Virus record (IMG/VR): IMGVR_UViG_3300044981_000214
Origin: a virus
Lineage: Duplodnaviria; Caudoviricetes
Length of the DNA stretch: 64,000 nt
Strand: one strand, 5' to 3'
Shown piece after piece: positions 35,826 to 51,464 of the stretch. Each line of letters opens with the position of its first letter. Within the stretch, counting starts at the first letter, position 1. A program made the translations under genes and the position numbers. The notes under the pieces are model-generated. The model was not told the origin of the DNA. It saw nothing but the letters and a program-made list of their open reading frames with translations, and did no database searches.

Positions 35826-35954
35826 ATGGCAATCAAACCGATGGTCCTAGGTCTAGTAGGCCGTCGGACAAATAAACGCATTTGTGTAAAGGTCGGTCGT
35901 CGTGTCTACTGCGGTAGACGTGTCAAACGTCAAGCAAGGCTTAAACTTAGGTAG
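35826..35954 (+). CDS. cationic Cys-pair peptide (42 aa)
   Basis: MAIKPMVLGLVGRRTNKRICVKVGRRVYCGRRVKRQARLKLR; TTGTAA-N17-TAAGCT-N6-ATG. Confidence 0.65.
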   Translation: MAIKPMVLGLVGRRTNKRICVKVGRRVYCGRRVKRQARLKLR

Positions 35955-35963
35955 GATCCTGAT

Positions 35964-36251
35964 ATGCCCATTAAGCCAGTAACTGTCATCGCGAAAGGTC
36001 CCCTAAAGAACGTTCAGCGTGCAGCAGCACGTTATGACGTTCCCGTTTCTGACTGTCGAGCTATTGGCGGTGACGTACAGTGTCACACGTTATGCAGCGC
36101 TGAAGCTAATATGGCTGAATGGTTCTCAGCACGTGGGCGTGTCAAGCAGGGAAGAGGATTCCCGCCTGGCACGCTTCTCTATTATTCCGGCAAGTGCGGG
36201 ACACGCGAGCTAGGGACAAGACGTTCGCGTAAACGTACGCGGAGGCGCTAA
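35964..36251 (+). CDS. basic protein with ELG motif and Arg tail
   Basis: Ends GTRELGTRRSRKRTRRR; TAGGAT-N6-ATG. Confidence 0.65.
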   Translation: MPIKPVTVIAKGPLKNVQRAAARYDVPVSDCRAIGGDVQCHTLCSAEANMAEWFSARGRVKQGRGFPPGTLLYYSGKCGTRELGTRRSRKRTRRR

Positions 36252-36256
36252 AAGCC

Positions 36257-36817
36257 GTGCGACGGCATCGTTCAACAGGCTTCGGTGACACGCCTGAAGA
36301 GGCGTGGATGATTGCGCGTGATGCTATTGAGGAGGAAAAGCCAGGCTACCAGGAGCGCGTATCTCAGATAGTTAAGCAGGGTAAAGATTTGCTTAACGCT
36401 GAAGACATTAAGACAGGTAGAAAATCTGTCCCCCGTGACTTGTTGCCATACGACCTCGAACGTAATCCGCGGATCAAGACTACGTACTCGATAATAACAC
36501 CTGAATCAGCAGAAATTGGTGACACAGCAGAACGTGGTTGGATCGACGAGGAAGGCGAATCGATGTTACCCGCTGATGAAGACGAGACAGTCATCGATCG
36601 GGCAGTAGCATTTCTGCTGAGTGAAGGTATTACTGAGTCGTCATCATCGGGCAGTTACGGCAGATGGCCAGGTCCTGGAATTTGGTATTCAACACAATTT
36701 GAAATGGACTATTCTACAGGCAATGAGGAAGAGCGTTCATTTCATCTATATGAGTTTACTGATGACGAGGAGAAAGCTATATACTTTGCCTTGAAGTCAA
36801 AGATTAGATCCCTATGA
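36257..36817 (+). CDS. acidic hypothetical protein with basic leader
   Basis: MRRHRSTGFGDTP leader; TYSIITPESAEIGD..ERGW motif. Confidence 0.65.
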   Translation: MRRHRSTGFGDTPEEAWMIARDAIEEEKPGYQERVSQIVKQGKDLLNAEDIKTGRKSVPRDLLPYDLERNPRIKTTYSIITPESAEIGDTAERGWIDEEGESMLPADEDETVIDRAVAFLLSEGITESSSSGSYGRWPGPGIWYSTQFEMDYSTGNEEERSFHLYEFTDDEEKAIYFALKSKIRSL

Positions 36818-37146
36818 GACGCAAACCTTGTCCAGCTGGCAAGACGCCAGACATCAACCGTGGCGGCTGTCGTCTAATCGGTAAGATCGGCAATCGCCAA
36901 CTGGGCAGCACACGACCGCTAGTTACGAATCCTACTGAGAACGCTGCACGGATCGTTGAACGTGCATTTGAGAACTGCCAGGATCGTCGCGGACGCGCTT
37001 TTTGGCAAAATAATCGCTGGTTCGTTGAAGATGATAAGCGCCGCGTTTATGCTGCTCTAGATGCGTCTCCAGGCTGTGCAGGGTCGAATATTGACTTCAC
37101 CCAAGTGAAGAGTTTTGGGCAGGTCGATAGGAAGAAAAAACGCTGA
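36814..37146 (+). CDS. basic hypothetical protein
   Basis: NRQLGST and SFGQVDRKKKR. Confidence 0.6.
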   Translation: MRRKPCPAGKTPDINRGGCRLIGKIGNRQLGSTRPLVTNPTENAARIVERAFENCQDRRGRAFWQNNRWFVEDDKRRVYAALDASPGCAGSNIDFTQVKSFGQVDRKKKR

Positions 37147-37184
37147 ATTGTGTGATAAGCTAGGTTAAAGAAAGGCTTAATCAA

Positions 37185-37883
37185 ATGGTTTCAGTTTTTA
37201 CTCTAGAGGGCCTTTCTCCACAGCAACTCAGTCTGTTGGGTACACCTACGGACACCAGTTTCTGGAATACCGGTGAGAATTACCAGACACTAAATACAGT
37301 CGCCAAGCCGCCCGCTAACGTTCGTCGCATGGAAAATTATCAGCCTTCTGGATTGCCTCAAGCGATGGCCAATCAGCCAAGCCTAGGCAATCCGCCTATC
37401 CAGTATTTCAACATGAACGACACGGGGCCATTACAGCGGGCTCTGGACAATAGACTGCATTTGGGCGACACACCGATTATTGAATATGGTGTGTTCGCTC
37501 ACAACAATCCACGTATGCTTGGCGACATTGCTACGCAGCCTAGCAACGTTCCAACGAATCCTAATACAGTCTACTACCCTATCAACTACGGTGGACCGTA
37601 TGCGCCACACGGTAAAGTTATCGGACCACAGAGGCCATTCACTTACGTTTACGGTGCAGGTGGTACGCCGACATCGTACGGTTGGACACCTCCGCCACGC
37701 GGCGCGATTACTGATTATGCTAACCCGACGCCCAATTTCGTGTCGTTCAGCGGGCCACAACAGTTAGGCCATTATGGTCACGGCTATCGGTATGAAGACA
37801 GCGACTGTAGCCCGAATTGGGTCGTTGCAGGCGTTGGGATGGCGCTAGGCGCAGCTGTAGTTTGGCTATTGGGCAAACGCTAG
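37185..37883 (+). CDS. LG-repeat Pro/Asn/Gly-rich protein with C-terminal membrane anchor
   Basis: Five LG sites; ends CSPNWVVAGVGMALGAAVVWLLGKR. Confidence 0.7.
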   Translation: MVSVFTLEGLSPQQLSLLGTPTDTSFWNTGENYQTLNTVAKPPANVRRMENYQPSGLPQAMANQPSLGNPPIQYFNMNDTGPLQRALDNRLHLGDTPIIEYGVFAHNNPRMLGDIATQPSNVPTNPNTVYYPINYGGPYAPHGKVIGPQRPFTYVYGAGGTPTSYGWTPPPRGAITDYANPTPNFVSFSGPQQLGHYGHGYRYEDSDCSPNWVVAGVGMALGAAVVWLLGKR

Positions 37884-37916
37884 CGCTGATGGGAGCTTTC
37901 GCGTAGACTGTTAGAC

Positions 37917-38198
37917 ATGAGACAGCTCGTGTTCGCAATTATTGGCTTGGGACGAGAGAATATGGCTCGTGTGACGAGCGCTGATCCACGATGTGCGTTG
38001 GATGTCGCCATCGCACAAGCGCAGGTGCCTCACCCGATTGATAAAGACATTCGTAAGTGTCTTAACGAGATTGTAGAAATGCGGCCCAGCAACGCGGCGA
38101 CTAGCGTTCGGATATCCGAACTACTGATCCGTGGTGATATTGATTACAAGTTTGGCGAAGATTGGACCGTTAGCATCGGAACGGTCGAAGTCATTTAG
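37917..38198 (+). CDS. hypothetical protein
   Basis: TAGACT-N7-ATG. Confidence 0.55.
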   Translation: MRQLVFAIIGLGRENMARVTSADPRCALDVAIAQAQVPHPIDKDIRKCLNEIVEMRPSNAATSVRISELLIRGDIDYKFGEDWTVSIGTVEVI

Positions 38199-38407
38199 AG
38201 CTTAGCAGCTTGGTCCTGTGCGATGTCCTTGCATTCACGCTGTGTCTGCCCTGAGCCGACTATCTTCCAACCGCTAGGGCTCAGAGCAATATGTCTTGCA
38301 GCACAACCCAACGCTGGCCGTGTGCATCCGCCATAGATAGGCGTGATCCACCATTTGCCGCAGTATGATTCGACGTAGTCATTGAACGAACGCTTCCAGC
38401 GAATCAT
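38195..38407 (-). CDS. hypothetical protein
   Basis: Start moved to MIRWKRS. Confidence 0.45.
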   Translation of the reverse strand: MIRWKRSFNDYVESYCGKWWITPIYGGCTRPALGCAARHIALSPSGWKIVGSGQTQRECKDIAQDQAAKL

Positions 38408-38580
38408 TTCTTCAGCTCGCCGTCTGGTGTCGTCTGCGGGTGCTGCGCCCACCACGCATTGAACTTCGCGCTCAGGTCGTCTGGCGACCAGTAGACGCTG
38501 CTCACCTCGTTGGCCGCAGCTTGGTAAGCCTGCCAGGCGACGTCCATCGGACGCAAGAGAGTTCGTTTTTTCTTGGTCAT
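38404..38580 (-). CDS. small hypothetical protein (58 aa)
   Basis: Manually translated MTKKKRTLLRPMDVAWQAY... Confidence 0.45.
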   Translation of the reverse strand: MTKKKRTLLRPMDVAWQAYQAAANEVSSVYWSPDDLSAKFNAWWAQHPQTTPDGELKK

Positions 38581-38584
38581 ATTG

Positions 38585-38683
38585 TTAGCACCAGATCAGT
38601 TGGGCGATAACGGCAATCCAGCCAATTATAATCGACACGCCAATGACAATGTCAAACTTGGTATCTTGTTGTTTGTAAATCAT
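38585..38683 (-). CDS. 32-aa single-TM peptide downstream of SLT gene
   Basis: MIYKQQDTKFDIVIGVSIIIGWIAVIAQLIWC. Confidence 0.4.
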   Translation of the reverse strand: MIYKQQDTKFDIVIGVSIIIGWIAVIAQLIWC

Positions 38684-38698
38684 TGCTATTTGCTTCTC

Positions 38699-39289
38699 TT
38701 ATGACTTGTTCTGTTTATCTGCATGCTCAGCAAGCTGCTTGATTCGACTCATGGCCCACAGGACGTTCTTGGGGTACTGCAGCGTGGTGTAGATGCTCAC
38801 GCCGCTATAGCCTGCGCCATAACCAGCCAGAGCACACTGCAAACGGTCATCGTCAGCTAGACTAGCACAATGCGGATCGTGCATCCAGATTGTTAGCTCC
38901 TTGGCTCCGGTCTCGTAGGCGTAAACGAGATCGGTCCGCATCTTGTCACATTCCTCCCAAGAAATATTGCCGCCGGTCTGGCTGACACCGCAGTAATAAG
39001 TGGGAAACGCGTGGGGCGGCTTCTCGTGAGACGTCCAGGGCGTGGTAACGCGCTTGCAGTTCTTGCCGTCGTCATCACACTCACGACGTGAAAGCGCCAT
39101 GGTATCGTAACGCGATTCAATGAGTGCTTGGCCCAACAGTAATTCGACAGGAAGGCTGTATTTCTCGGCTGCCTTAGTAGCAGCTTCCACGTTGAGTTTG
39201 GCATTATCTTCAGAGAGGCTAAATGACGCACTCTGAGGAAGGTTAGCCGCCATACCGATGATCGCTGTAACGAGAGCTGGAATAGTCAT
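38699..39289 (-). CDS. lytic transglycosylase (SLT-like) with N-terminal export signal
   Basis: LLLGQALIESRYD (catalytic Glu), GVSQT, ALAGYGAG. Confidence 0.7.
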   Translation of the reverse strand: MTIPALVTAIIGMAANLPQSASFSLSEDNAKLNVEAATKAAEKYSLPVELLLGQALIESRYDTMALSRRECDDDGKNCKRVTTPWTSHEKPPHAFPTYYCGVSQTGGNISWEECDKMRTDLVYAYETGAKELTIWMHDPHCASLADDDRLQCALAGYGAGYSGVSIYTTLQYPKNVLWAMSRIKQLAEHADKQNKS

Positions 39290-39398
39290 TGTTGTTGAGG
39301 ACCCTATCTTGTCTGTTTGTCCAGATCAAGGCAGGAGCAGCAGGGATTATTTCGTAGGGTGTAAATCGTTCATTTCTGGTAAGATAGGAAATATCGCC

Positions 39399-39899
39399 AT
39401 GCCTGCTAAGAAACCTGCAGATGTATTGACTATTTCGGAGTTAGCTAAGATGTTCGGCTTGCCGGAATGGGACGAAGTCGATGAAATGAATCTAGATTAT
39501 TATTGGGAGCTTGCGAGGGGCTCTGAGGACGAAACTGAGGCCGAGTCAGCGGCTCAACAAGAGGTTTATGGGCAATGGTACGATGCTGTAGAACAAGTAG
39601 CTGCCAAACTGTTTGGCGAGTACGAGCTTGAACTAGGTCCGCGGAATACCAAAGATTCAGATCGACCGTACGAACTTCGTATTACGCCCAAGACGACATG
39701 GAATGATGCGGCTCAAAAGATCATCAATACCATCAATGGCGTAGGGCACTTTCATTTTTCTTCGCTTAAGGAATTCCTTGACTCTGGACCGTACACAGCA
39801 CGTCAGGCTGTTCTTGAACATCTTAGTTACGTGAGACGTGCGCCTGAGGTCTACGGTGACACTTCACCCCGTCAGCTGTACGAGAGGTATTTCCGGTAA
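39399..39899 (+). CDS. hypothetical protein
   Basis: Start moved to MPAKKP; TGgTAAGAT upstream. Confidence 0.6.
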   Translation: MPAKKPADVLTISELAKMFGLPEWDEVDEMNLDYYWELARGSEDETEAESAAQQEVYGQWYDAVEQVAAKLFGEYELELGPRNTKDSDRPYELRITPKTTWNDAAQKIINTINGVGHFHFSSLKEFLDSGPYTARQAVLEHLSYVRRAPEVYGDTSPRQLYERYFR

Positions 39900-39941
39900 T
39901 TTCTTGCTCTAATCCGGTTTAGACGGTATCGTTCGTTTGTC

Positions 39942-40298
39942 GTGCTAACCGTTACGCGTGAAGGCGCTACGCCCAACATGCTAAAGTACTATATCGTTGC
40001 CGACGAGGACGGCGGAGAAATAGCTATTGCGCGAGAACAGCTATTGAAAGATTGCACCTTCGGGCCTTTGAGAAAATACATTGATTCAGCCGTCAGTCTC
40101 CCAAGCGCTGATGCTGCCTGGCAGTATCTATTCTGCAATACTTCTATACGCGCGCTGCTGACACCAAGAACGTTAGCCAGGACCTGCGTTGATGCCGCAG
40201 TATTGATACCTAGCGGTAAGTTGCAGATCTGTTTTAGAGCAGAACCGAACGCTAAAGCTGTTTTCGCACTTGAATTTCGTCACACTCTATCTGCATAA
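39942..40298 (+). CDS. hypothetical protein
   Basis: ORF. Confidence 0.5.
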   Translation: MLTVTREGATPNMLKYYIVADEDGGEIAIAREQLLKDCTFGPLRKYIDSAVSLPSADAAWQYLFCNTSIRALLTPRTLARTCVDAAVLIPSGKLQICFRAEPNAKAVFALEFRHTLSA

Positions 40299-40306
40299 TT
40301 TAGTGA

Positions 40307-40648
40307 GTGGGATTCAAGATATTGATCTTTGCGTTTATTGGCGCTTCACTAGTATCAGTGCCTAAGGCATCTGCCGTACAAGACCCTGATGAACCTACAG
40401 CACCAATGCCTGACGCTAGGCCTGAACCACATGAACCGCCCCCGCTACCTGACCCGATTCCGGTTCCTCCAGAATCCCCGACTGATCCTGTAGAACTTCC
40501 TCCAGACCAAAATCCATTGCCCGATCCAGAAGACCCGCCTGACAGACCTGGGCCCGATGATTTTAGATATAGCCAAGACCTTCGCAGTTTAGACACGGCT
40601 GCCAGCCTACGCCGAAGCCTACAAAGATCATCCCGACGGGATGATTAA
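40307..40648 (+). CDS. exported Pro/Asp-rich low-complexity protein
   Basis: Signal peptide (..KASA) followed by P/D/E-rich tract. Confidence 0.55.
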   Translation: MGFKILIFAFIGASLVSVPKASAVQDPDEPTAPMPDARPEPHEPPPLPDPIPVPPESPTDPVELPPDQNPLPDPEDPPDRPGPDDFRYSQDLRSLDTAASLRRSLQRSSRRDD

Positions 40649-41042
40649 TCTCGTCCGGTTGCTGCCTGCAAGCCGGACATTGTCGAAGGGCGATCACGCG
40701 ATCGATACACTGCTTAGCCGTCTCATTTTCTTTGGGATCGAGGCTGAGACAAATATAGTCGGTGTCAGTTACTATTGCGTTCGGATCGCCGGTATTTAGC
40801 CGCTCAGCAGCAGCACGAAAGGCATCTGCCTGAAGAGGCACGAAGATCTTGTCTGAATATATGTGATATCGATATCGTGTAAGGTCACCGTAACTGATTC
40901 GATAACTACGATTTCCTGCGACGTGGAATCCCCAATCCGGGCCTTCTTCAATAACTAAGCGTTCCGCCTTAAAATCAGCTTCGATGTTATTAAGCACCAA
41001 TAAAGCCTGCAGGGCTTCCAATTTCTCACGGGGAAGTATCAT
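40563..41042 (-). CDS. hypothetical protein
   Basis: CPAC and CLNC motifs. Confidence 0.5.
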   Translation of the reverse strand: MILPREKLEALQALLVLNNIEADFKAERLVIEEGPDWGFHVAGNRSYRISYGDLTRYRYHIYSDKIFVPLQADAFRAAAERLNTGDPNAIVTDTDYICLSLDPKENETAKQCIDRVIALRQCPACRQQPDEINHPVGMIFVGFGVGWQPCLNCEGLGYI

Positions 41043-41217
41043 GAATCGTACCTGTGCCCGCGGCATTTAAAATATCAGCGCAGCGTGCTCGATGTCCTGG
41101 CCAGTTATGGCCAATCACACGTTCGAAATAACGGGCCATGGTTCGGTCGCCTTTGGCAGCGAACTTTTGGCTAGTGGTGTGCAATAGCTCGTCTGTGACG
41201 TCAGCAACGGTCAGCAT
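41026..41217 (-). CDS. hypothetical protein
   Basis: ORF in operon. Confidence 0.45.
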   Translation of the reverse strand: MLTVADVTDELLHTTSQKFAAKGDRTMARYFERVIGHNWPGHRARCADILNAAGTGTIHDTSP

Positions 41218-41511
41218 TTATGGAATCCTATTTTGGAACATCGTGTCAAGCGAAGCTTCATCTGTGCCGTACATATCCTTGAACTCTTTCCGCGTCATCG
41301 GCCATCTGCCCTTTAATGCACTGCGCAGGTCTCGCGCCCATCGTTGCATCTGTGATACAGCACTAGGCGGCATATTAGCGAAGTCTCCAGTATATGGGAC
41401 ATGTTGACCGCCTTTGCCACGACTCTCGAAATTGGCAATGGCACCTTCAAAAAGGTCGATAACTGCCCATATCGCAGCTCGTAGGCGTTCGGTTTCGTTA
41501 TCACCGGGCAT
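41218..41511 (-). CDS. hypothetical protein
   Basis: GAGGAG RBS. Confidence 0.55.
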   Translation of the reverse strand: MPGDNETERLRAAIWAVIDLFEGAIANFESRGKGGQHVPYTGDFANMPPSAVSQMQRWARDLRSALKGRWPMTRKEFKDMYGTDEASLDTMFQNRIP

Positions 41512-41514
41512 GAA

Positions 41515-41790
41515 TTAAATCTCCTCGAAATCAAACGTATTGAAATCGCCACCTTGATGCTCACATAACGTCCCATAAGTCATAGGAACACAAACACCAT
41601 CAGGGGATTGGATAGCCCAACGACAAACACGCGCGAGTGGACAGTGTATTTTCTTGGTCAGGTTACCTACAGGAATCGTTTCAGGTGCTGTACATCGTTT
41701 GGCTAGCTTACCCCACCAAGCATGGCATTGAGTACAGGGCTCGTGGGTTAACTGTGTCACGCCTCCGACGGACGGACATTGAATCTTCAT
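41515..41790 (-). CDS. Cys-rich hypothetical protein
   Basis: 8 Cys. Confidence 0.5.
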   Translation of the reverse strand: MKIQCPSVGGVTQLTHEPCTQCHAWWGKLAKRCTAPETIPVGNLTKKIHCPLARVCRWAIQSPDGVCVPMTYGTLCEHQGGDFNTFDFEEI

Positions 41791-42149
41791 GATGATAATG
41801 GCTTAGGGCACTGCCTAAGCGCTTCCTTGATCACATGGTCAACAGGTGCGTCGTTGCCGAGTTTGGCTTGAGCTGCATCGACAGCAGGAAACGCGACTCC
41901 AGGTTTGAATCCTAGTGTAGTTAGCGCCTTCCTGGCGTCATCACGAGTAGCCTTAGAATTGTATCCCGTATCGCCGGGATCACGCGAACGTGCTTGAACC
42001 ACACGTCTTGGAGCGCAACCCTGTGCGCTCGAATCTATTTGCTGGCGACGGTTCCCTCTAATTCGATCGGCTACAGCATCGATGACAATGCCGAACGCGA
42101 CTAGAAGCGCACCTGTACCAAGCAAGAAAATGTCGTTCCATGACAACAT
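41787..42149 (-). CDS. membrane-anchored protein with RuvA C-terminal-like domain
   Basis: N-terminal TM; DARKALTTLGFK...AV.......VIKEALR. Confidence 0.6.
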   Translation of the reverse strand: MLSWNDIFLLGTGALLVAFGIVIDAVADRIRGNRRQQIDSSAQGCAPRRVVQARSRDPGDTGYNSKATRDDARKALTTLGFKPGVAFPAVDAAQAKLGNDAPVDHVIKEALRQCPKPLSS

Positions 42150-42271
42150 CTAAAAAGCTCGCCACATCCAGTAGGCAATGCAGATCAGGACAATCTGAAC
42201 AAAGAGAAAGTGTAGCGCAAAGGCAACTAGAGCGCCTAAGTCGCCGTTGTGAAGCCATTTAAGGAGATTCT

Positions 42272-42487
42272 TCATTTGCACTTTCTCAGCAGCTCCGAGT
42301 CGAAATAGTGCGAGCCTGCCCCTCCTGCCCAAACTTCACGGCCACCGCAACGCTTGCAGGTACGAACAGACCCGAACCTGTCATTGCTGGCGCAAGCGAC
42401 TATCGTTGACTCTTTGCGGCCGAATTGATGCGAAGCATCCGGCTTCGCATCCATCATGACCATTTCCATGTTAAGGGCGTAGATCAT
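42272..42487 (-). CDS. hypothetical protein
   Basis: CKRC motif. Confidence 0.45.
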   Translation of the reverse strand: MIYALNMEMVMMDAKPDASHQFGRKESTIVACASNDRFGSVRTCKRCGGREVWAGGAGSHYFDSELLRKCK

Positions 42488-42982: not shown

Positions 42983-42983
42983 G

Positions 42984-43241: not shown

Positions 43242-43242
43242 T

Positions 43243-43413: not shown

Positions 43414-43423
43414 TTGCGTCAAT

Positions 43424-44177: not shown

Positions 44178-44206
44178 TACGTTGCCTTTGTTTGCCTTTG
44201 TAAATA

Positions 44207-44425: not shown

Positions 44426-44429
44426 GATG

Positions 44430-44912
44430 TTACTCGGTCTCGATTCCGAGGACCTTGACCTTTGGGAAGTCGTCCGTCTCGATTCCGAGGACCTTGATCA
44501 GCAGGTCACGAGCAGCGTCCAGTGCTCCCTCAGCCGACCCCAGGTCACCGTACTTACGGGCCGTACGAGACACGTCCAGATGGCTGATAGCGCGTGCGAT
44601 CATGTCAACGGCCTCGCCAGCACCAAGCTTCTCGACAAGATAAGCAGCGCGCTCGCGGTTAGTTTCCGAGATATGCCCCACCATTTGATCCATCTCTGTA
44701 GTCTGCACTGCGCCTCCGGCTACGGCCGTCACAAAGAACGGATAGCTTCGCGTGATCTCGGTCTCCAGCTTAGGCTTAGCCTTGTCATTCTCCTGGGAGT
44801 AGATCTTAATAGTCCACACCCCAGGCCGTGCCTTGGAAGCGTTAAGCGGGTTCAAATAAGAAGTAGTAGGATAAGAAGTAGTAGGAGCAATCTTGGTGTT
44901 TGTGTCCTTCAT
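44430..44912 (-). CDS. hypothetical protein with short internal duplications
   Basis: PTTSY x2 and KVLGIET x2. Confidence 0.6.
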   Translation of the reverse strand: MKDTNTKIAPTTSYPTTSYLNPLNASKARPGVWTIKIYSQENDKAKPKLETEITRSYPFFVTAVAGGAVQTTEMDQMVGHISETNRERAAYLVEKLGAGEAVDMIARAISHLDVSRTARKYGDLGSAEGALDAARDLLIKVLGIETDDFPKVKVLGIETE

Positions 44913-44920
44913 ATCAACCC

Positions 44921-44946
44921 AACGCCACTCTACTAGCGCCTATTCC
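44921..44946 (-). promoter_or_regulatory. ECF-sigma-like promoter
   Basis: GGAAT-N17-CGTT, ATG 9 nt after CGT. Confidence 0.65.
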
Positions 44947-44963
44947 AAAAATCAAGTCAAGAG

Positions 44964-45551
44964 CTAGTCGTCATCCGAAACTCCCCCAAGTCCTTGTACC
45001 AGCGTACCTAACGCCGGAGGTCTTAACCCGGCCTTAAGGTAAGGGTAAGCCAAAGCTGTTGGCTGTGACTTAGCCATCTCGATAGCCACCATGCAGGTTT
45101 GCCTGATGGACGAACATACAGGAATATTCGGGTACGAGAGCTGTAGTCGCCTACGTAGGTAGGCCCCTCCAGTAAAACCCCGTTCAAACCCCACGACTAC
45201 ACGGGCAAGGCCTGCCTGCGACTTGATAGCCCACTCTCCAAGCTCGAATCGTGCCGCTTGGGCATAACTGCGATTGCAGCGGTGCGAAGTCTCCTTTGGA
45301 AAAAGAAAAAGCTGCACCCCGTTGACAGCTGCTTGCTCTTGCAACACCCGCGACCATTGAAGCTGATCTTCGAGCTTGCCGTTAAACGATTTGGCGCGTG
45401 GGTTAGCAAAGTGCATATTTCTTGACGCGTGCTGCGTCAAAATCGCTAGTGCTTCGCGTTGCCACTCCGCACAGCCCTGAATGGGACCATTCAAGTATAT
45501 CAACGGCTCGGATAAAGGCTGTTGAGGGAGATCAGGTGCAGTGAAAATCAT
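44964..45551 (-). CDS. nucleoside 2-deoxyribosyltransferase-like protein (second type)
   Basis: IYLNGPIQG..EWQ, ANPR, QLQW, RFELGEW. Confidence 0.75.
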   Translation of the reverse strand: MIFTAPDLPQQPLSEPLIYLNGPIQGCAEWQREALAILTQHASRNMHFANPRAKSFNGKLEDQLQWSRVLQEQAAVNGVQLFLFPKETSHRCNRSYAQAARFELGEWAIKSQAGLARVVVGFERGFTGGAYLRRRLQLSYPNIPVCSSIRQTCMVAIEMAKSQPTALAYPYLKAGLRPPALGTLVQGLGGVSDDD

Positions 45552-45566
45552 GGTAAACTATTTAAT

Positions 45567-46178
45567 ATGCAACCGCTTGGGGATGTACAACCGACCCAAC
45601 AAATTTTCGAGTTTTCTTGTGGCAGTGCGGCATTAAAGGCCGTTCTAAAGCATTGGGGTATGGATGTTGACGAACCGACACTAATTGATCTTATCGGTGT
45701 AGACCCAAAGACAGGTAGCACTGCGTACCAAGTCGAGCGTGCCGCAAAGAAGCTCGGGTATCAAGCCATAACTTTTGAGTTCGACAACGTGGAGGAACTT
45801 AAACCTTTCGTCGACAATCACGTGCCCGTCATCATGGCTATCCAGAGCTTCAAACGGCCAGATCAAGGGCACTTCGTCGTCGGAACGAAAGTCCAAGACA
45901 ACACAATCGATATTATGGACCCAAACGTCAAAGGCAACTGGCGGACGATCTCGAAAGCTGAAGCTACTCGACGCTGGAAGTTTCGTGACAACGTGGGCAT
46001 TGTGGTAACGCCTAAGTCAGGTTTGGGGGAATTGGATTGGGTACGGTCAAGAAATCGGCAAATGTACGATTATGGTCGTGGGGTTGGAATTGCCGAAGAT
46101 GCCACCTGTAATCCACTTCTTTGGGCCGTCGGAGGGATAGCTGCTACGTTAGCTGCGGTGTGGCTGATTACGCGCTAG
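45567..46178 (+). CDS. stand-alone C39-family cysteine peptidase with C-terminal membrane anchor
   Basis: Q....SCGSAAL..VL..WG, GHFVV, IMDPN; TM tail; start moved to MQPLGD. Confidence 0.85.
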   Translation: MQPLGDVQPTQQIFEFSCGSAALKAVLKHWGMDVDEPTLIDLIGVDPKTGSTAYQVERAAKKLGYQAITFEFDNVEELKPFVDNHVPVIMAIQSFKRPDQGHFVVGTKVQDNTIDIMDPNVKGNWRTISKAEATRRWKFRDNVGIVVTPKSGLGELDWVRSRNRQMYDYGRGVGIAEDATCNPLLWAVGGIAATLAAVWLITR

Positions 46179-46444
46179 CACTTTTCTTTGAAAACGGCGT
46201 CTCCGCCACCCCACGATGTTCCTATTAGGCCAAACAACAGTGAAAATAGAAACGAGTTGTTAGGACAGCCCGACGGTGAAGCTGAGGGCGATACTTTATC
46301 GAACATAATATCTGCTAAAACGCCTAAAGCTAACCCGACGCTACTTCCAATTGCTACTCCTTTAATGTATTGGCCTTGCGTAATAGGGCACGCCGTTTTA
46401 GTTGTATCTCCTAATTGGTGCACATTTCGCCTATTTCGTCTCAT
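46175..46444 (-). CDS. two-TM protein with basic leader and QLG|D motif
   Basis: MRRNRRNVHQLGDTT; TGTGATAAT-N6-ATG. Confidence 0.6.
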   Translation of the reverse strand: MRRNRRNVHQLGDTTKTACPITQGQYIKGVAIGSSVGLALGVLADIMFDKVSPSASPSGCPNNSFLFSLLFGLIGTSWGGGDAVFKEKC

Positions 46445-46461
46445 CTTCTGATTATCACACG

Positions 46462-46489
46462 AAAAAAAAAAACACTAGCGCGAAGTAGT
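46462..46489 (-). terminator. possible intrinsic terminator after tnpB remnant
   Basis: Weak ACTA..TAGT stem followed by an 11-nt T run on minus strand. Confidence 0.4.
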
Positions 46490-46521
46490 AAGACCTAATT
46501 ACGTGCCTATCCGGTTAACGC

Positions 46522-46852
46522 TCATTGAGCAACCCGGCTTCCCTCAACAGGAGGCTGATGACAGATCTTAGCTAGATCTACCAGCTGTCTTTTCGACAAC
46601 GCACTCAGCCCGAGATTAAGTATGTTCTGTGCCGAGTTCACGTCTCGGTCGTGGCTAGCGCCACATTCAGAACATACCCATTCCCTTATTCCAAGACCTG
46701 CGATACCTTTCGGCCTCGACTCGGGGATAATTCCACAAGCCGAACAGGTTTGGGTCGTGAAACGCTCTGACACTTCTTCGAATATCCCTTGGCGCCTTCT
46801 GGCCTTGTAATCAAGGGCTTGTTTGGAAGCGTACCAGCCTGCATCATAGATT
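46522..46852 (-). pseudogene. tnpB: 3' remnant of a second tnpB (Zn ribbon, RuvC-III, omega-RNA region)
   Basis: In-frame IYDAGW....LDYKA...EVSERFTTQTCSACG..PKGIAGLGIREWVCSECGASHDRDVNSAQNI; N-terminal two thirds absent. Confidence 0.88.
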
Positions 46853-47124
46853 GTTGGGTTCTCGCAGTACCGACAGACCTAACAAATGCTCTACAGGCAG
46901 TATTGAATATAGGCAATCATGACTTGGCGAAAGAGTTAGCGAATGATGCAGGCTGGTCTCTAACATTGGTTCATACCTTCCAATCCTGGGGACCGAATTA
47001 TTACCAGTTGAGCATCAGAAGTGAGACGCCCCCTTTATTTGAAAGACATATGTATTTAATCTACATAGACCGTGTATTAGAATACGTTCCCTGCCCCAAG
47101 GAACGTGTTCATACCTATGTGTAA
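46789..47124 (+). CDS. hypothetical protein (paralog of next gene)
   Basis: ALQAVLNIG...AKELANDAGW; true start uncertain. Confidence 0.5.
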   Translation: MAPSGLVIKGLFGSVPACIIDCWVLAVPTDLTNALQAVLNIGNHDLAKELANDAGWSLTLVHTFQSWGPNYYQLSIRSETPPLFERHMYLIYIDRVLEYVPCPKERVHTYV

Positions 47125-47389
47125 CGACGGCGAGACTAGCCACGATTTCCTTGAGGCTCTTCAGGCCTTACTAAGGGTAGGTACAGACGAGGCTAAAGGC
47201 ATCGCGAAACAGCTTTGTCTCGATGCAGGATGGATACTAACCACCTATTCCAGCTTTGATAACGAGCCCTTTTGGGAACTGCAAAATTTTACAAGATACC
47301 CTGGTAAAGTCTTATATAGATATGTCCTCACTGATCGGATATCCGATTTGAAGACTTGGTACCCTGACACACTTGATATACTGGAGTAA
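47105..47389 (+). CDS. hypothetical protein
   Basis: ALQALLRVG...AKQLCLDAGW. Confidence 0.55.
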   Translation: MFIPMCNDGETSHDFLEALQALLRVGTDEAKGIAKQLCLDAGWILTTYSSFDNEPFWELQNFTRYPGKVLYRYVLTDRISDLKTWYPDTLDILE

Positions 47390-47395
47390 CAACCC

Positions 47396-48667
47396 ATGGC
47401 TGCAATCCTGCCCAATCTCGAAGTTCCCGAAGACATATCGATTCTAGAACGCGAATATTCAAAATGCGCCTCGTCGATGCATGGCGCAACGCTAGGCGAA
47501 AACAGTCCTAGCTGTCCATCGCCCGACACAGTCATCGCAGAGGCGCACGCAGGCCTACTCAACATGGTATTCGTTCGTGAGGCTGTAGAACAGAGTCTCA
47601 TAGACGTAACGTTCATTGCTCAGGCCGGAAATCTGGCTGGTAAAGATACTAAGGGCGTATACCTAGTACTCGACAAGCCGATCGGTAGGGGGCCGGCGTG
47701 GAACCCTACTACAAATCCTGACGTCCAACAGTATTCGTTGCTGAGCTGGACTAGCAAGATGGCTTGCCCCTCGTTCAGCTTGCCTGCAGGTGATATAACC
47801 ATTGGCGGTAGCTGTCCCGGGGCTGCAGCAGGACAGAGTGTCGTCCCCGAAGGACGGTTAGTTGCAGCCCAAAGACTAGTTGCCAAGATTATCAAGAAAG
47901 AAGTCAATTTGGCGCAGTGTATCTGTGAGCACTGCTATAGTATGGGAGGTCAGTACAGCACTGGCCAGGTCCAGTACGCACAGATCCTACGCTATCTATG
48001 GGCACGGCAAGCCATCAATGTTGTAGCACCAGCACCAGATGGCTCGCCGTCTACTGCGTTTATCGAGACGATGGTTTATGCAATCGACAACGCCAATTTC
48101 TACCTCCAAGGCAGCAAAGGCGAAGACGCTGAACTAGTTCCCGAGCAATCCGGCAAGAAATTTTTTCGTATTCACGATTCAGGCGATTTCTTTGAGGAAG
48201 AATATCTTAGCCAATGGAAACAAATCGCTAGGCGTCTACCGCATATTCACTTCTGGGCACCTTCGAGGATTTGGGCCACAAGTTGGGGCATTGACGCAGT
48301 CAATAAGATCAACTCGCCGATTGATAACTTAGTTATTAGACCGTCGAGCTATGAAATCAACGAGCATCCACCACGAGATTTGGGTCCGGGATGGAGTGCT
48401 GGATCAACAGTGATTGCAGCTGACCAATTTCTTGGAATGACATCAGAGCTTGAGAAATATGTCTACGAGCACGCGCAACGAGTAGCGGTTCGCCCGAATG
48501 GACCTGATCCAAGAGCAGATTGGAACTGCCAAGCCTACTCCACCGAAGACGCTAAGCACACTTGCAGGAAAGCCGTAGCGCCTCCTGGGAAAGGTGGCGT
48601 TGCTGGCAAAGGCTGCCGAGCTTGTTGGCTAAGTACCGATTTAGTAGTTAACTATACGTTACATTAA
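47396..48667 (+). CDS. Gp88-like Cys-rich (radical-SAM-related) phage protein
   Basis: SKMACPSFSLPA..SCPG, CEHCY, FRIHDSGDF, FWAPSR, NLVIR.S, CRACW...Y..H. Confidence 0.75.
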   Translation: MAAILPNLEVPEDISILEREYSKCASSMHGATLGENSPSCPSPDTVIAEAHAGLLNMVFVREAVEQSLIDVTFIAQAGNLAGKDTKGVYLVLDKPIGRGPAWNPTTNPDVQQYSLLSWTSKMACPSFSLPAGDITIGGSCPGAAAGQSVVPEGRLVAAQRLVAKIIKKEVNLAQCICEHCYSMGGQYSTGQVQYAQILRYLWARQAINVVAPAPDGSPSTAFIETMVYAIDNANFYLQGSKGEDAELVPEQSGKKFFRIHDSGDFFEEEYLSQWKQIARRLPHIHFWAPSRIWATSWGIDAVNKINSPIDNLVIRPSSYEINEHPPRDLGPGWSAGSTVIAADQFLGMTSELEKYVYEHAQRVAVRPNGPDPRADWNCQAYSTEDAKHTCRKAVAPPGKGGVAGKGCRACWLSTDLVVNYTLH

Positions 48668-48694
48668 AGTTATTTGTAGAGGAATAAACGGTAA

Positions 48695-49315
48695 TTATTG
48701 AATGTCCTCTGGCTGAACGCTTGTAAATACACCGTCGCCCTTTGAGCCTATCGCTGTAATAATGCCTACTAGTTTACCTTGGGCGTTAAATACTCCTGCA
48801 CCTGAATTACCGTGCTGCACTGCACCTGTGAAATTTACATCGCGACCGCCAGGACCGCCTACAGAGGTTACTACTCCGCATAATGTGTCAACCTTCGGGT
48901 CGGCCACGTGAGCACATACTGTTTCACCGATCTTCACGGCAGCAACTTCTGGGGATGCCAATGTATCGCCCAATGAACCGTTTGGAATTGACAATAATGC
49001 AAGATCCCTTGCACGAGATAGCCAAATGACCGAAGCGAAGGCATGACTCCCATTAGGAAGTTCAACGTATAGGCCTTGAACATTACAATCAGCCATATGC
49101 CCTGCAGTCAACACGCGCCTCGGCCCTAAGGCGATACCTGTACCTCTATAGCCTGTGTAGGCTTGATTTGTTGTGGTTAGGTCAACCTTTACACAAATCT
49201 CGTCAAGACGAACTGTCACTGCTGCTTGATAAGCTGGGGTAAATATCGAAGAACGGGATGACGAAAAACATCCAGTCATTATGCTAGCAACAAGCCACAA
49301 CCGAAAACCGCGCAT
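48695..49315 (-). CDS. trypsin-like serine protease lipoprotein
   Basis: Lipobox MTG-C; LTAGH, DLALL, GNSGAG triad. Confidence 0.85.
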   Translation of the reverse strand: MRGFRLWLVASIMTGCFSSSRSSIFTPAYQAAVTVRLDEICVKVDLTTTNQAYTGYRGTGIALGPRRVLTAGHMADCNVQGLYVELPNGSHAFASVIWLSRARDLALLSIPNGSLGDTLASPEVAAVKIGETVCAHVADPKVDTLCGVVTSVGGPGGRDVNFTGAVQHGNSGAGVFNAQGKLVGIITAIGSKGDGVFTSVQPEDIQ

Positions 49316-49341
49316 GCATAGATCGTAACACGAATGGCACT

Positions 49342-49989
49342 TTACTCAGCTGCTATAGTATTTGCGGCGTTTAGCAAAAACCAAGTAGGGTCGAGCAGTG
49401 TATTAGGCCGTTCACCGCGACGGGGCCATTCGGGCGCATCACGTGTACCATGCTTGTGCAATTCCAAGTGAAGCATCGCCATAGGTCGACCTTTGTCGTG
49501 TATTAACACAGTCTTGACGCAACCGATCAAATTCTTTGCCTTTATCATCTGTCCGACAGTAAGCGTTGTAGAAATTTCGCCGTATACGACAACGCCGGTC
49601 CTACCTTCAACCAATACAGCGTCTGTATCAGACCAATATGAAGAGCTGGCTTTAGCTCCTGTGAACGGTAGGACAGCTACTACCGTCCCGTCTTCAACCG
49701 CTGTTACTGGTGTTCCTTCTGGACAATACAAGTCGACGCCCTCGTGTATATGGTGTTTTCTTACGAAGGCAAAGCTACCGGGATGCGGTGCTAGCGGGAT
49801 TGCAATCTCGAATTTCTTGAGGCTCTTGAACGATTCGCTATCACGTGATGGAATTAGCTTGAAGTCTAACAACGGAGAGTACCAAGGGATATCTCCAACG
49901 GTTGCAGGCACTGCTGGGCGCGCTGCAAGAGGCCAACAGTGCAAGCCTTCAACCCAAACAAAGAGGCCAACCAACACATACTCAATCAT
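49342..49989 (-). CDS. M23-family peptidase-like protein
   Basis: HEGVDLY..EGTPV.AVEDG.V; MLHLEL. Confidence 0.75.
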   Translation of the reverse strand: MIEYVLVGLFVWVEGLHCWPLAARPAVPATVGDIPWYSPLLDFKLIPSRDSESFKSLKKFEIAIPLAPHPGSFAFVRKHHIHEGVDLYCPEGTPVTAVEDGTVVAVLPFTGAKASSSYWSDTDAVLVEGRTGVVVYGEISTTLTVGQMIKAKNLIGCVKTVLIHDKGRPMAMLHLELHKHGTRDAPEWPRRGERPNTLLDPTWFLLNAANTIAAE

Positions 49990-49997
49990 GGCTTAAA

Positions 49998-50357
49998 TCA
50001 CGGCCCGATCGTATAGATGCTAGCGCCGTTGTTATCCTCATCACCAGGATCACCGAAATAGTTGAAGCTGTAGAGATGGATCTTGATGAACAAGGCTACA
50101 TATGGATCGTATGGATTCATGTCAGGATTGGTCCTGACTGTCTTCCACCAATCGCTTGGAGGTTCATTTTCCTTATCCCATTCTGGCCACATACCATACG
50201 CGGGCAGGTACCAAATATTCATGCCACAAGCGGTACAGCCCATCGTTTGATCCCACACCTCGATAATGCCATCACTGCACTGTTGCGGTAGTTCACGCCA
50301 ATCACCTTCCCAACAAATTTGGTTGTAAGGCTTATCTTTAATCTGACAGTTGCTCAT
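49998..50357 (-). CDS. hypothetical protein
   Basis: ORF in operon. Confidence 0.5.
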   Translation of the reverse strand: MSNCQIKDKPYNQICWEGDWRELPQQCSDGIIEVWDQTMGCTACGMNIWYLPAYGMWPEWDKENEPPSDWWKTVRTNPDMNPYDPYVALFIKIHLYSFNYFGDPGDEDNNGASIYTIGP

Positions 50358-50755
50358 AGCATTTTCTTGGTCTTATTGTGCGGGTCCAGTCCTAGCTGTT
50401 CACGAACCTCATGATTTAGCATCACCTTTACTGTATTAGCAACCTCAGTCATAGTTGGCTCAGTACCCCACGGTTGGGTAGTCTTGAATTCCGCTATTTC
50501 GCCCGTTTCTACATCGAGCGAGCATATTCTACACTCGATAACCCATGCGGTAGGGTCTTCAATATTCCTTGTCACAGATACTTTACAAGACTCAGGAAGC
50601 TTAATCGTGAAGGTCTCTGGCTCCGTAATCGTTCGTACGGCCGGGTCCCATTCAGCAATCAGCGCATCGATTGCATCTTTGGCTTGACGTAGCTCTTGTT
50701 CCTTTGTTAGCTCTCGAACTTTAGCTAGTTTCTTATCCCACTCCTCATTGGTCAC
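50354..50755 (-). CDS. hypothetical protein
   Basis: HEVRE...DPH C-terminus. Confidence 0.55.
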   Translation of the reverse strand: MTNEEWDKKLAKVRELTKEQELRQAKDAIDALIAEWDPAVRTITEPETFTIKLPESCKVSVTRNIEDPTAWVIECRICSLDVETGEIAEFKTTQPWGTEPTMTEVANTVKVMLNHEVREQLGLDPHNKTKKML

Positions 50756-50966
50756 GGCGAGGACCTCTTTCTCCTTTAGCTAGCCAAAATGCTAGAATCG
50801 TGTTCGCTGATGCGAACAAGAAATAAAGGGGCCATGCAAGGAACAGCGCGGTCTTCTCTAACCAGCGCCATCGTAGGGACCAACTCCAGGCACTAAACAC
50901 GCCGTCAACGTAGACCGTAAGGCCGATTAGTAGATATGCTGCAATACCGTAGATGAACATTGGCAC
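50745..50966 (-). CDS. small membrane protein
   Basis: YLLIG...LAWPL hydrophobic pattern. Confidence 0.5.
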   Translation of the reverse strand: MPMFIYGIAAYLLIGLTVYVDGVFSAWSWSLRWRWLEKTALFLAWPLYFLFASANTILAFWLAKGERGPRRDQ

Positions 50967-50990
50967 TAGAAAGCAGTGTACAATTATTTC

Positions 50991-51464
50991 GTGCCCACTA
51001 AGAAAAAATCAGCTTCAAGCGCCCCACCTTGCTTGAAGGTCAAGATCGGGGCTAGCAAGGGAACGCATCAGCGTACCGAAGGCGGTTGTGCGACTGTTGG
51101 CACGGGCAGTTTTGATCGTAAGTCTTTCAACCTCGGCAAGAAATTCGGTGCGACGTCCAAGACTGTTGACGCTATCGATGGCAAATATTGCGGTACCGAC
51201 AAGCATGGTAAGAAGAAAAAGTGCCCTGAACCTTGTCAGGCGGTCTCGAAGCGTAAGACCTGTCCTGTTCAGTTAGTGTTTGACCGCGGACAACCGTTTC
51301 TACGTTTTTGTCGAGCAGCTAAAGAAGCGGGATATCGAGTAAACGTCGAGTCGAGCCGAGAGGCTGTAAGTGTAGCAGAGAGGGCCTGTGCGCACTGGAA
51401 GCGTGTTGGCTCGTTTGAGGGCTACTTCCCGAGTGGGACGCCGCTAAGGGGACGCACCAAGTGA
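50991..51464 (+). CDS. basic Cys/Lys-rich protein
   Basis: TACAAT-N6-GTG; 8 Cys; ends PLRGRTK. Confidence 0.6.
   Translation: MPTKKKSASSAPPCLKVKIGASKGTHQRTEGGCATVGTGSFDRKSFNLGKKFGATSKTVDAIDGKYCGTDKHGKKKKCPEPCQAVSKRKTCPVQLVFDRGQPFLRFCRAAKEAGYRVNVESSREAVSVAERACAHWKRVGSFEGYFPSGTPLRGRTK

What the first reader, a model, noticed from the sequence alone, without database searches (positions are those of the whole stretch)
35826..51464. Putative LG-motif proteolytic maturation system: basic leaders/tails, (L/F)G|(D/T/S/N) sites and a membrane-anchored C39 peptidase
Seen: otherwise unrelated proteins carry the same short motif at the junction between a basic tag and the body. Examples: RELG|TRRSRKR (35964), MRRHRSTGFG|DTP (36257), RQLG|ST and SFG|QVDRKKKR (36814), MRRNRRNVHQLG|DTT (46444), MVLG|L (35826), and five copies in 37185 (LLG|TP, SLG|NP, HLG|DTP, MLG|DI, QLG|HY). 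The C39 peptidase domain itself is bracketed by PLG|D and GLG|E. Known: C39 peptidases cut after Gly in leader peptides and are usually fused to ABC exporters; adenovirus core proteins are basic precursors matured after Gly. Inference: a phage-encoded targeting and processing code, with 37185 as a polyprotein, possibly for internal or membrane-associated virion proteins.
Basis: partly seen in the sequence, partly recalled or inferred. Interest (0 to 1): 0.75.

Follow-up and report, generated by a model that had tools for sequence, protein, structure and literature searches.

The report
Leu/Phe-Gly end-tags and viral C39 protease
A large uncultured bacterial virus encodes a membrane-anchored bacteriocin-type (C39) cysteine protease flanked by the same Leu/Phe-Gly junction that joins short leaders and poly-arginine tails to several unrelated viral proteins, so the virus may trim its own proteins much as adenovirus does, although no cleavage has been shown.

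Summary
Every quoted motif is in the sequence, and the C39 peptidase (45567-46178) is real. It has an intact Gln/Cys/His/Asp set, a ComA/PCAT1/LahT-like fold and a C-terminal membrane helix.

A subset of the Leu/Phe-Gly sites is more than chance:
- [LFM]G sits directly before terminal poly-Arg tails in 13 of 83 tailed proteins (background 1%).
- The junctions of 36257, 36814, 35964 and one site of 37185 persist in diverged orthologs.
- The protease carries the motif at both of its own borders: 41 of 43 homologs at the N-terminus and 38 of 43 in the linker.

Other parts of the finding do not hold:
- Basic N-leaders alone are barely enriched.
- Four of the five sites in 37185 lie in a lineage-specific insert, so it is not a polyprotein.
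- ORF 46444 is doubtful as a gene.

One complete close relative lacks the C39 yet keeps some tags, so the link between protease and tags is unproven.

Best reading (about 0.45): the C39 cuts after the Gly, removing tags and freeing itself from its anchor.

Other agents of this scan raised the same idea on other windows of this genome.

The parts
45567..46178 (+). Standalone C39 (double-glycine-type) cysteine peptidase, 203 aa. Leader MQPLG| at 45567-45581. Oxyanion Gln11/12 at 45597-45602. Cys18 at 45618-45620, His102 at 45870-45872, Asp118 at 45918-45920. Linker 46014-46112 holding SGLG|E (LG at 46023-46028). C-terminal membrane helix 46113-46172.
   Evidence: Pfam PF03412 E 2.5e-16. Catalytic columns invariant in 16 and 40 homologs. 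phmmer hits ComA and PCAT1. AF2 domain pLDDT above 93; Foldseek gives 3k8u at TM 0.90, also PCAT1 and LahT 6mpz. Junction motifs present in 41 of 43 and 38 of 43 homologs.
44964..45551 (-). Conserved divergent neighbour of the C39 gene. The L001 ortholog is listed with PF15891, a nucleoside deoxyribosyltransferase-like family.
   Evidence: In every C39-bearing relative held, its ortholog lies next to the C39 or within about 1.3 kb of it (coordinates; gene table). No Pfam hit for the window copy itself.
35826..35954 (+). Tiny (42 aa) arginine-rich two-cysteine protein, protamine-like or adenovirus-mu-like. Junction LVG|RR.
   Evidence: Relatives G002 179599, G006 22853 and G007 86303 share RKIC..(T)KVCG..RRRR and carry GLG|KRRRR and LVG|RRRR.
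35964..36251 (+). Small basic protein with C-terminal tag RELG|TRRSRKRTRRR. LG at 36210-36215, tail at 36216-36248.
   Evidence: Translation. Orthologs and paralogs end in NLG|RSRKRK.., GLG|RRKRR.., GLG|RRRRR.
36257..36817 (+). Acidic protein with basic leader MRRHRSTGFG|DTP (36257-36286).
   Evidence: Orthologs at 41-77% identity keep MRRRSVGFG|DT..MRRRLG|DT and MAKRYHLG|AD. The internal Met used by one gene caller is not conserved, so the leader is translated.
36814..37146 (+). Small protein with a basic leader ending RQLG|ST (36814-36906) and a tail SFG|QVDRKKKR (tail at 37120-37143).
   Evidence: The L001 ortholog reads MKRRRKTAFG|NY ... NGLG|KRKRRVR. The two leaders differ by a 21-residue indel, but the Gly column is kept.
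37185..37883 (+). Tail-anchored Pro/Gly-rich protein. It has one conserved site, QQLG|H (LG at 37764-37769), about 15 residues before the C-terminal membrane helix. It is not a polyprotein.
   Evidence: All 9 orthologs keep Q-x-[FL]-G before the anchor. The other four LG sites lie in an insert present only in the window and L001.
46175..46444 (-). ORF with MRRNRRNVHQLG|DTT. Its status as a gene is doubtful.
   Evidence: No homolog among 1.84 billion representatives. Low codon score in my own gene calling. Not called in relative L135, although the frame there is 100% identical in protein. It lies in a near-identical block, 46000-46499, next to a TnpB remnant.
50976..51464 (+). Basic protein ending GTPLRG|RTK. 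It belongs to a family whose tails follow PLRG or PLG.
   Evidence: Orthologs end PLRG|RRRK, PLG|RARTKRQRNR, PLRG|SKRKR and PLRG|TPKRKRK.
54410..54931 (-). Protein with leader MAKSAVKPRRRLRKQLG|GTT (54881-54931). It lies outside the finding's range but carries the same kind of tag.
   Evidence: Translation. The only homolog is a 99% copy, so conservation could not be tested.
54140..54406 (-). Small protein with tail DFG|IRRKKRETK (tail at 54143-54169).

Best explanation
The window belongs to a family of large uncultured bacterial viruses. In this family many unrelated, mostly small or membrane-anchored proteins carry short modular end-tags joined to the protein body by Leu/Phe-Gly. There are three kinds of tag: basic N-terminal leaders, 'MLA...'-type N-terminal leaders, and C-terminal poly-arginine tails.

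The virus also encodes a C39 cysteine peptidase of the kind that cuts bacteriocin leaders after Gly. Here it is not fused to an ABC exporter but tethered by a C-terminal membrane helix. The same junction lies at its N-terminus and in the linker before its anchor.

Most likely the peptidase cuts after the Gly. This would remove leaders and poly-Arg tails from a set of viral proteins and release its own catalytic domain from the membrane. The basic tags themselves would serve beforehand to hold the proteins on DNA or on the membrane during assembly.

Shown here: the enzyme, its intact active site and fold, the tags, and their conservation and positional enrichment.

Inferred: that the junctions are cleavage sites, that the C39 is the cutter, and what the tags do.
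For: 1. The C39 identity is solid.
- Pfam gives 60 bits.
- The oxyanion Gln, Cys, His and Asp are invariant in 40 homologs.
- The fold matches the ComA peptidase domain (TM 0.90), PCAT1 and LahT.

2. The enzyme carries the motif at its own borders.
- Of 43 homologs, 41 have [LFM]G four residues before the PYQQ that opens the domain, after leaders of 3 to 75 residues. The other two have Leu-Ala.
- 38 of 43 have [LFM]G in the otherwise variable linker of about 19 residues, usually as basic-x-Q-[LF]-G. About 17% would be expected by chance. The exceptions read LA, FS and LS.
- Position P1 therefore varies only among Gly, Ala and Ser, which is the known P1 range of double-glycine peptidases (established knowledge of the family).
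- In P0014 and P0015 a DUF5661 domain is fused upstream, and the junction is still RAFG|D.

3. The tags are positionally enriched.
- [LFM]G directly precedes terminal poly-basic tails in 13 of 83 proteins (p 4e-12), against 4 of 103 internal basic clusters.
- By family the count is 12 of 112 (p 4e-6).
- Proteins starting M[LI][ATSF] have [LF]G at residues 5-20 in 26 of 52 cases, against 140 of 1147 for other proteins (p 1.6e-10). This set includes the C39 itself.

4. The tags are modular and conserved in orthologs.
- This holds for the 36257 leader, both ends of 36814, the 35964 tail family, and Q-x-[FL]-G before the anchor in all 9 orthologs of 37185.
- In a peptidoglycan-binding paralog family, some members start at the body and others have ML...[LF]G| in front of it.

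5. There is partial co-variation with the C39.
- The transglutaminase-core protein has a basic leader plus [LF]G in C39-bearing genomes and in G007 (an incomplete contig in which no C39 was found). It has a plain membrane N-terminus in the two complete genomes without the C39.
- [LFM]G-tails occur in all 6 C39-bearing loci around the GP88-like gene, in 1 of 7 tails in G009, and in 0 of 13 tails in distant loci where no C39 was found.
Against: - No cleavage is observed, and none can be with these tools.
- The candidate sites have Leu/Phe at P2, whereas classical C39 substrates have Gly there and a helical leader of 15-30 residues. Poly-Arg tails lie on the P' side, which C39 enzymes are not known to read.
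- G009 is a complete (terminal repeats) close relative with no C39 by profile, Pfam and tblastn. It still has MAKRHKRRSGLG|G, MARRRKKQLADFG|P and tails after L-x-G-[ASP]. The counts of tags in C39-bearing and C39-free genomes do not differ significantly.
- Basic N-leaders are only marginally enriched, and the loose N-terminal pattern is not enriched across whole genomes.
- Gly is also mildly enriched before internal basic clusters (17 of 103), so part of the signal may be a hinge preference.
- There is no general excess of [LF]G upstream of C-terminal anchors.
Confidence: 0.45

Rival explanations
1. The tags are real but are not cut. Poly-Arg tails and basic leaders are permanent DNA-binding or membrane-binding modules, and the Gly is only a flexible hinge or helix cap. 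The C39 has a narrower job: it processes itself, a few proteins, or a classical double-glycine peptide.
For: - G009 keeps tags without a C39.
- Gly is enriched before internal basic clusters too.
- Tag counts do not separate C39-bearing from C39-free genomes.
- Relative G002 encodes a textbook double-glycine precursor...LNDVQLGQVAGG| followed by a Cys-rich core, at 117006-117248. This would be a classical substrate.
Against: - A hinge does not explain why the residue before the Gly is Leu/Phe.
- It does not explain why the same junction ends non-basic 'MLA' leaders.
- It does not explain why the protease carries the junction at both borders in about 90% of homologs.
- It does not explain why leaders come and go exactly at that boundary.
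- The double-glycine peptide occurs only in G002, not in the other C39-bearing genomes.
Confidence: 0.28
2. The C39-like domain is a cell-wall or other non-protein-maturation hydrolase. On this reading it is a membrane-anchored lysis or entry enzyme like the other anchored wall-degrading enzymes of this virus, and the LG tags are cut by another enzyme, such as the universally present transglutaminase-core protein, or by a host protease.
For: - Foldseek also finds the pseudomurein endoisopeptidase PeiR (rank 13).
- Peptidase_C39_2 domains occur in multi-domain phage endolysins (bioRxiv 10.64898/2026.04.25.720813).
- The neighbourhood holds glucosaminidase-like and M23 genes.
- A transglutaminase-core protein is present in all five genomes searched, including the two complete C39-free genomes.
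Against: - The best sequence and fold matches are leader peptidases, not lysins.
- There is no wall-binding domain.
- The self-flanking motif is unexplained on this reading.
- The transglutaminase-core protein itself carries a leader plus [LF]G in C39-bearing genomes and in G007, an incomplete contig in which no C39 was found. This makes it look more like a substrate.
Confidence: 0.12
3. The motif list is mostly coincidence: common Leu-Gly dipeptides noticed next to arginine-rich ends of small ORFs.
For: - Proteome-wide Q[LF]G is only 1.24 times expectation.
- The loose N-terminal pattern is not enriched.
- Window N-leaders give p 0.06.
- Four of the five sites in 37185 are not conserved.
- ORF 46444 is doubtful as a gene.
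Against: - Positional enrichment holds at both protein and family level.
- Junctions are conserved in orthologs through indels.
- About 90% of C39 homologs carry both junctions.
Confidence: 0.1

Closest known systems
C39 double-glycine leader peptidases (peptidase domains of ComA, PCAT1, LahT; Pfam PF03412)
   Same: Same family by sequence, catalytic Gln/Cys/His/Asp and fold. Cleavage after Gly is the family's hallmark. P1 in the viral junctions varies only among Gly, Ala and Ser.
   Different: It is not fused to an ABC exporter but tethered by a C-terminal membrane helix followed by arginines. The candidate sites have Leu/Phe, not Gly, at P2. The leaders are 4-17 residues and basic or 'MLA'-type rather than amphipathic helices of 15-30 residues. 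Some tags lie C-terminal to the site. The proposed substrates are the virus's own proteins, not secreted peptides.
Adenovirus maturation: adenain cutting basic core precursors (pVII, pX/mu, pVI) at (M/I/L)XGX-G or (M/I/L)XGG-X, with the basic pVIc tail as cofactor (own knowledge)
   Same: Analogous logic. Both have a hydrophobic residue plus Gly at the site, arginine-rich peptides and a tiny Arg-rich protein, and a virus-encoded cysteine protease. The viruses here are said by other notes of this scan to be tailless and to contain a membrane.
   Different: The protease family is unrelated (C39, not C5), so there is no homology. The enzyme here is membrane-anchored. Cleavage, DNA dependence and virion location are all untested.
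C-terminal sorting signals of bacteria (LPXTG, PEP-CTERM, GlyGly-CTERM: motif + membrane helix + arginine cluster)
   Same: The C39 and about 7% of the proteins in these genomes end in a membrane helix followed by RRRR. A short motif, Q-x-[LF]-G, precedes the helix in the C39 and the 37185 families.
   Different: No sortase, exosortase or rhombosortase was looked for or seen. There is no N-terminal Sec signal. There is no general excess of [LF]G before anchors.
Standalone C39 genes in other huge phages (e.g. uncultured phage LR756511.1, 595 kb)
   Same: A free-standing C39 domain encoded by a phage, 37% identical.
   Different: That copy has no membrane anchor and no Leu/Phe-Gly borders.

Membership tests
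Peptidase C39 (PF03412, double-glycine leader peptidase) | Profile match above the curated cut-off | tested here: met
   60.2 bits against a cut-off of 22, E 2.5e-16. PF13529 also scores 34.5 bits.
Peptidase C39 (PF03412, double-glycine leader peptidase) | Oxyanion Gln, catalytic Cys and His (plus Asp) in the family's order | tested here: met
   Q11/Q12, C18, H102 and D118 are invariant in 16 and 40 homologs and align to the ComA Q/C/H/D region.
Peptidase C39 (PF03412, double-glycine leader peptidase) | Papain-like C39 fold | tested here: met
   AF2 model with domain pLDDT above 93. Foldseek top hits are 3k8u (TM 0.90), PCAT1 and LahT 6mpz.
Peptidase C39 (PF03412, double-glycine leader peptidase) | N-terminal domain of an ABC exporter (PCAT/AMS architecture) | tested here: not met
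   The ORF ends at 46178 after a single membrane helix. All 49 homologs found are 113-272 aa. That search was limited to 111-356 aa, so fused relatives were not looked for.
Peptidase C39 (PF03412, double-glycine leader peptidase) | Substrates with a Gly-Gly (or GA/GS) site after an amphipathic leader of 15-30 residues | tested here: not met
   Candidate junctions have Leu/Phe at P2 and short basic or MLA leaders. A canonical GG precursor exists only in relative G002.
Peptidase C39 (PF03412, double-glycine leader peptidase) | Demonstrated peptide-bond cleavage after the Gly | not testable with these tools
   Needs biochemistry or proteomics.
Adenovirus-type maturation system | Adenain (C5) protease | not tested
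   No C5 profile was run. The only Cys protease examined is a C39. Ulp1-like C48 is absent from 5 relatives.
Adenovirus-type maturation system | Basic precursor proteins cut at hydrophobic-x-Gly sites | tested here: inconclusive
   Arg-rich small proteins with [LF]G, LxG and LVG junctions exist and are conserved. Cleavage is unknown.
Sortase/exosortase-type C-terminal sorting signal | Motif + membrane helix + basic cluster at the C-terminus | tested here: inconclusive
   A helix plus RRRR is common: 83 tail-anchored proteins in C39-bearing contigs. However, [LF]G is not generally enriched upstream of the helix (30% against 30% background).
Phage endolysin / PeiR-type C39-like hydrolase | Wall-binding module or closest similarity to lysin catalytic domains | tested here: not met
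   No further Pfam domain. PeiR ranks below ComA, PCAT1 and LahT.

The most novel reading that the evidence does not exclude
A family of very large, apparently tailless bacterial viruses has recruited a bacteriocin-leader peptidase as a membrane-tethered maturation protease. Poly-arginine tails and short leaders act as removable address tags that hold dozens of unrelated proteins on the genome or the viral membrane. The enzyme then clips them, and itself, at Leu/Phe-Gly. This would be a prokaryotic counterpart of adenovirus core maturation, and it would imply a changed P2 specificity for the C39 family.
Probability: 0.3. Interest if true: 0.85.

Novelty: new variant of a known kind. Interest (0 to 1): 0.6.

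Why it matters
Known tailless, membrane-containing bacterial viruses are not known to mature by proteolysis. In eukaryotic relatives of that architecture, protease-driven maturation is a hallmark.

A virus-encoded C39 that trims the virus's own proteins would be a new role for a well-studied enzyme family, with a new site rule (Leu/Phe-Gly instead of Gly-Gly). It would also give a simple sequence code for predicting which of the many orphan proteins of these uncultured viruses are processed or packaged.

The idea can be tested directly with cloned genes: co-expression, a Cys mutant, and peptide assays.

Tried and rejected
- Complex prediction of the C39 domain (residues 1-155, with alignment) and residues 1-32 of ORF 46444 gave no verdict: score 0.03 against a mark of 0.32. 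It counts neither for nor against binding.
- The AF2 model gave low confidence in the linker (pLDDT 46-65), so it says nothing about whether the linker docks in the active site.
- Single-protein scans of viral contigs with the C39 and with 36257 found nothing. Alignments were needed.
- megablast of the region against known phages found no match.
- No whole genome is held for the window, and metagenome records could not be searched whole. The presence/absence test therefore rests on IMG/VR records only.
- Proteome-wide tripeptide counts and a test for [LF]G upstream of all C-terminal anchors showed no useful signal.
- Motif avoidance in replication proteins is strong in the window ([LF]G at 0.57 of expectation) but inconsistent among relatives: G002 is 1.03 and G009 is 1.04. 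I did not use it as evidence.
- Trypsin_2 (window 48695-49315) was considered as a trimmer of Arg tails. It is absent from five relatives, so it was rejected as a conserved component.
- The Rfam scan of 33.5-52 kb found nothing.
- The Atlas look-up of 36257 gave only unnamed viral clusters.
- 54410 has no informative homolog.

Full report
**What the window is.** The window carries a phage-type replication block at 14.6-33 kb, with helicases, ribonucleotide reductase, DNA polymerase and a Sak4-like protein. The region of the finding follows after an IS605-type TnpB gene. No known phage matches at the DNA level. Relatives at 50-65% protein identity are uncultured viral contigs of 48-232 kb. Earlier notes of this scan describe the same genome as a large, apparently tailless, membrane-containing virus and raise the same tag idea on other windows. 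I treated those notes as leads only.

**The protease.** ORF 45567-46178 is a C39 peptidase.
- Pfam PF03412 gives E 2.5e-16.
- phmmer finds the ComA and PCAT1 peptidase domains.
- The oxyanion Gln, Cys18, His102 and Asp118 are invariant in 40 homologs.
- An AlphaFold model (domain pLDDT above 93) superposes on ComA (TM 0.90), PCAT1 and LahT.
- It is not fused to an exporter. It ends in a linker, one membrane helix and basic residues.
- The 49 homologs found are all of this short form (longer lengths were not searched).
- In every C39-bearing relative held, the gene lies beside, or within about 1.3 kb of, the ortholog of 44964-45551.

**The protease carries the motif itself.** This is the strongest single result.
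- Of 43 homologs, 41 have [LFM]G four residues before the PYQQ that opens the domain. The leaders in front of it range from 3 to 75 residues. The two exceptions read Leu-Ala.
- 38 of 43 have [LFM]G in the otherwise variable linker of about 19 residues, typically as KRKxxQ[LF]G. The exceptions read LA, FS or LS. About 17% would be expected by chance.
- In P0014 and P0015 a DUF5661 domain is fused upstream, and the border is still RAFG|D.

**The tags in the window.** All quoted strings exist.

| ORF | What was found |
|---|---|
| 36257 | Leader kept in orthologs of 41-77% identity (MRRRSVGFG\|DT, MRRRLG\|DT, MAKRYHLG\|AD). An internal Met used by one gene caller is not conserved, so the leader is translated. 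|
| 36814 | Matches an ortholog whose leader is 21 residues shorter but keeps the Gly column. The ortholog's tail is NGLG\|KRKRRVR. |
| 35964 | Belongs to a family of small basic proteins whose tails start after LG, FG or similar. |
| 35826 | A tiny Arg-rich, two-Cys protein. Relatives read GLG\|KRRRR... and LVG\|RRRR. |
| 37185 | A tail-anchored protein. All nine orthologs keep Q-x-[FL]-G about 15-25 residues before the anchor. The other four LG sites lie in an insert shared only with L001, so the polyprotein idea fails. |
| 46444 | Doubtful as a gene. No homolog among 1.84 billion representatives, low codon score, and not called in the ~95%-identical relative (DNA level; its C39 protein is 97% identical). 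It lies in a near-identical block beside a TnpB remnant. |

**Statistics.**
- Tails: [LFM]G sits at -2,-1 of terminal poly-basic tails in 13 of 83 proteins, against a 1.04% background (p 4e-12). For internal basic clusters it is 4 of 103. By family it is 12 of 112 (p 4e-6), and within the window 3 of 6 (p 0.0025).
It is twice what shuffling predicts (p 0.0045). The motif was defined from these proteins, so this is post hoc.
Many of these are orthologs of one another, so they represent roughly 16 independent families. The C39 itself is among them. In one paralog family, some members begin at the body and others carry ML...[LF]G| in front of it.
- Basic N-leaders alone are weak (p 0.03-0.06).
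- Loose patterns are not enriched.

**Is the C39 the cutter?** The evidence is mixed.

Two complete genomes lack the C39 by profile, Pfam and tblastn. G009 is a close relative. G010 is distant.

In favour of a link:
- The transglutaminase-core protein is present in all five genomes searched. It has a basic leader plus [LF]G in C39-bearing genomes and in G007, an incomplete contig in which no C39 was found. It lacks the leader in G009 and G010.
- Around the GP88-like gene, all six C39-bearing loci have [LFM]G-tails. Distant loci where no C39 was found have none in 13 tails.

Against a link:
- G009 keeps two LG leaders and one GLG tail. Its other tails follow L-x-G-[ASP].
- Overall counts do not differ significantly between the two groups.

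Other points:
- Classical C39 substrates have Gly at P2. Here it is Leu/Phe, so a changed specificity must be assumed.
- G002 alone also encodes a textbook double-glycine, Cys-rich precursor.

**Verdict.**
- The most likely mechanism (about 0.45) is cleavage after the Gly by the C39. This would remove address-like basic tags and release the enzyme from its anchor.
- The main rival (about 0.28) is that the tags are permanent basic modules with a Gly hinge.
- The resemblance to adenovirus maturation is an analogy, not homology.
- I found no paper describing this.

Noticed in passing
window 34546-35769 (-) and 46522-46773 (-): An intact IS605-type TnpB gene sits just upstream of the tagged gene cluster. 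An 83-aa TnpB C-terminal remnant sits just downstream of the C39. In the ~95%-identical relative (DNA level, L135) the second copy is intact at 374 aa.
   Followed up: partly
window 47302; L088 1-9900: A contig 97% identical to the window from 47302 onward has a completely different 9.9 kb upstream, with no C39 there. This is a mosaic breakpoint beside the TnpB remnant.
   Followed up: partly
window 46000-46499: This block has 2 mismatches against relative L135, whereas the flanking genes differ by 5-9%. It spans the C39 linker and anchor and the doubtful ORF 46444. The cause is unexplained; recent exchange is one possibility.
   Followed up: partly
window 48695-49315 (-) and 49342-49989 (-): A Trypsin_2 protease with a lipoprotein-like N-terminus (..IMTGC) lies next to an M23 peptidase. 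The trypsin-like gene is absent from five relatives.
   Followed up: partly
window 52109-52948 (-): An R2K-clade ATP-grasp protein (PF14243, E 2e-14).
   Followed up: no
G002 117006-117248 (inside L015): An 80-aa precursor with a canonical double-glycine leader (..LNDVQLGQVAGG|) and a Cys-rich core, resembling a bacteriocin or RiPP. It is present only in this relative.
   Followed up: partly
relatives G002, G003, G006, G007 (e.g. G002 60-66 kb): About 7% of proteins in C39-bearing contigs (83 in all) are tail-anchored, and many of them end in a membrane helix followed by RRRR(AA). This is a recurring C-terminal anchor resembling bacterial sorting signals.
   Followed up: partly
window 14659-33265 (replication genes): [LF]G is depleted to 0.57 of shuffle expectation in core replication proteins of the window. 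The control [IV]G is at 1.04. The depletion is weaker or absent in relatives.
   Followed up: yes
G009 4.1-9.0 kb (inside L059): The C39-free relative has a run of about 15 small basic proteins starting MAK/MAR. Several of them end L-x-G-[ASP]-RRRRR, a junction different from the [LF]G|RRRR seen in C39-bearing genomes.
   Followed up: partly
P0014, P0015: A DUF5661 domain is fused in front of the C39. The same domain is a separate tail-anchored gene in G002 (96.6 kb), G006 and G010.
   Followed up: partly
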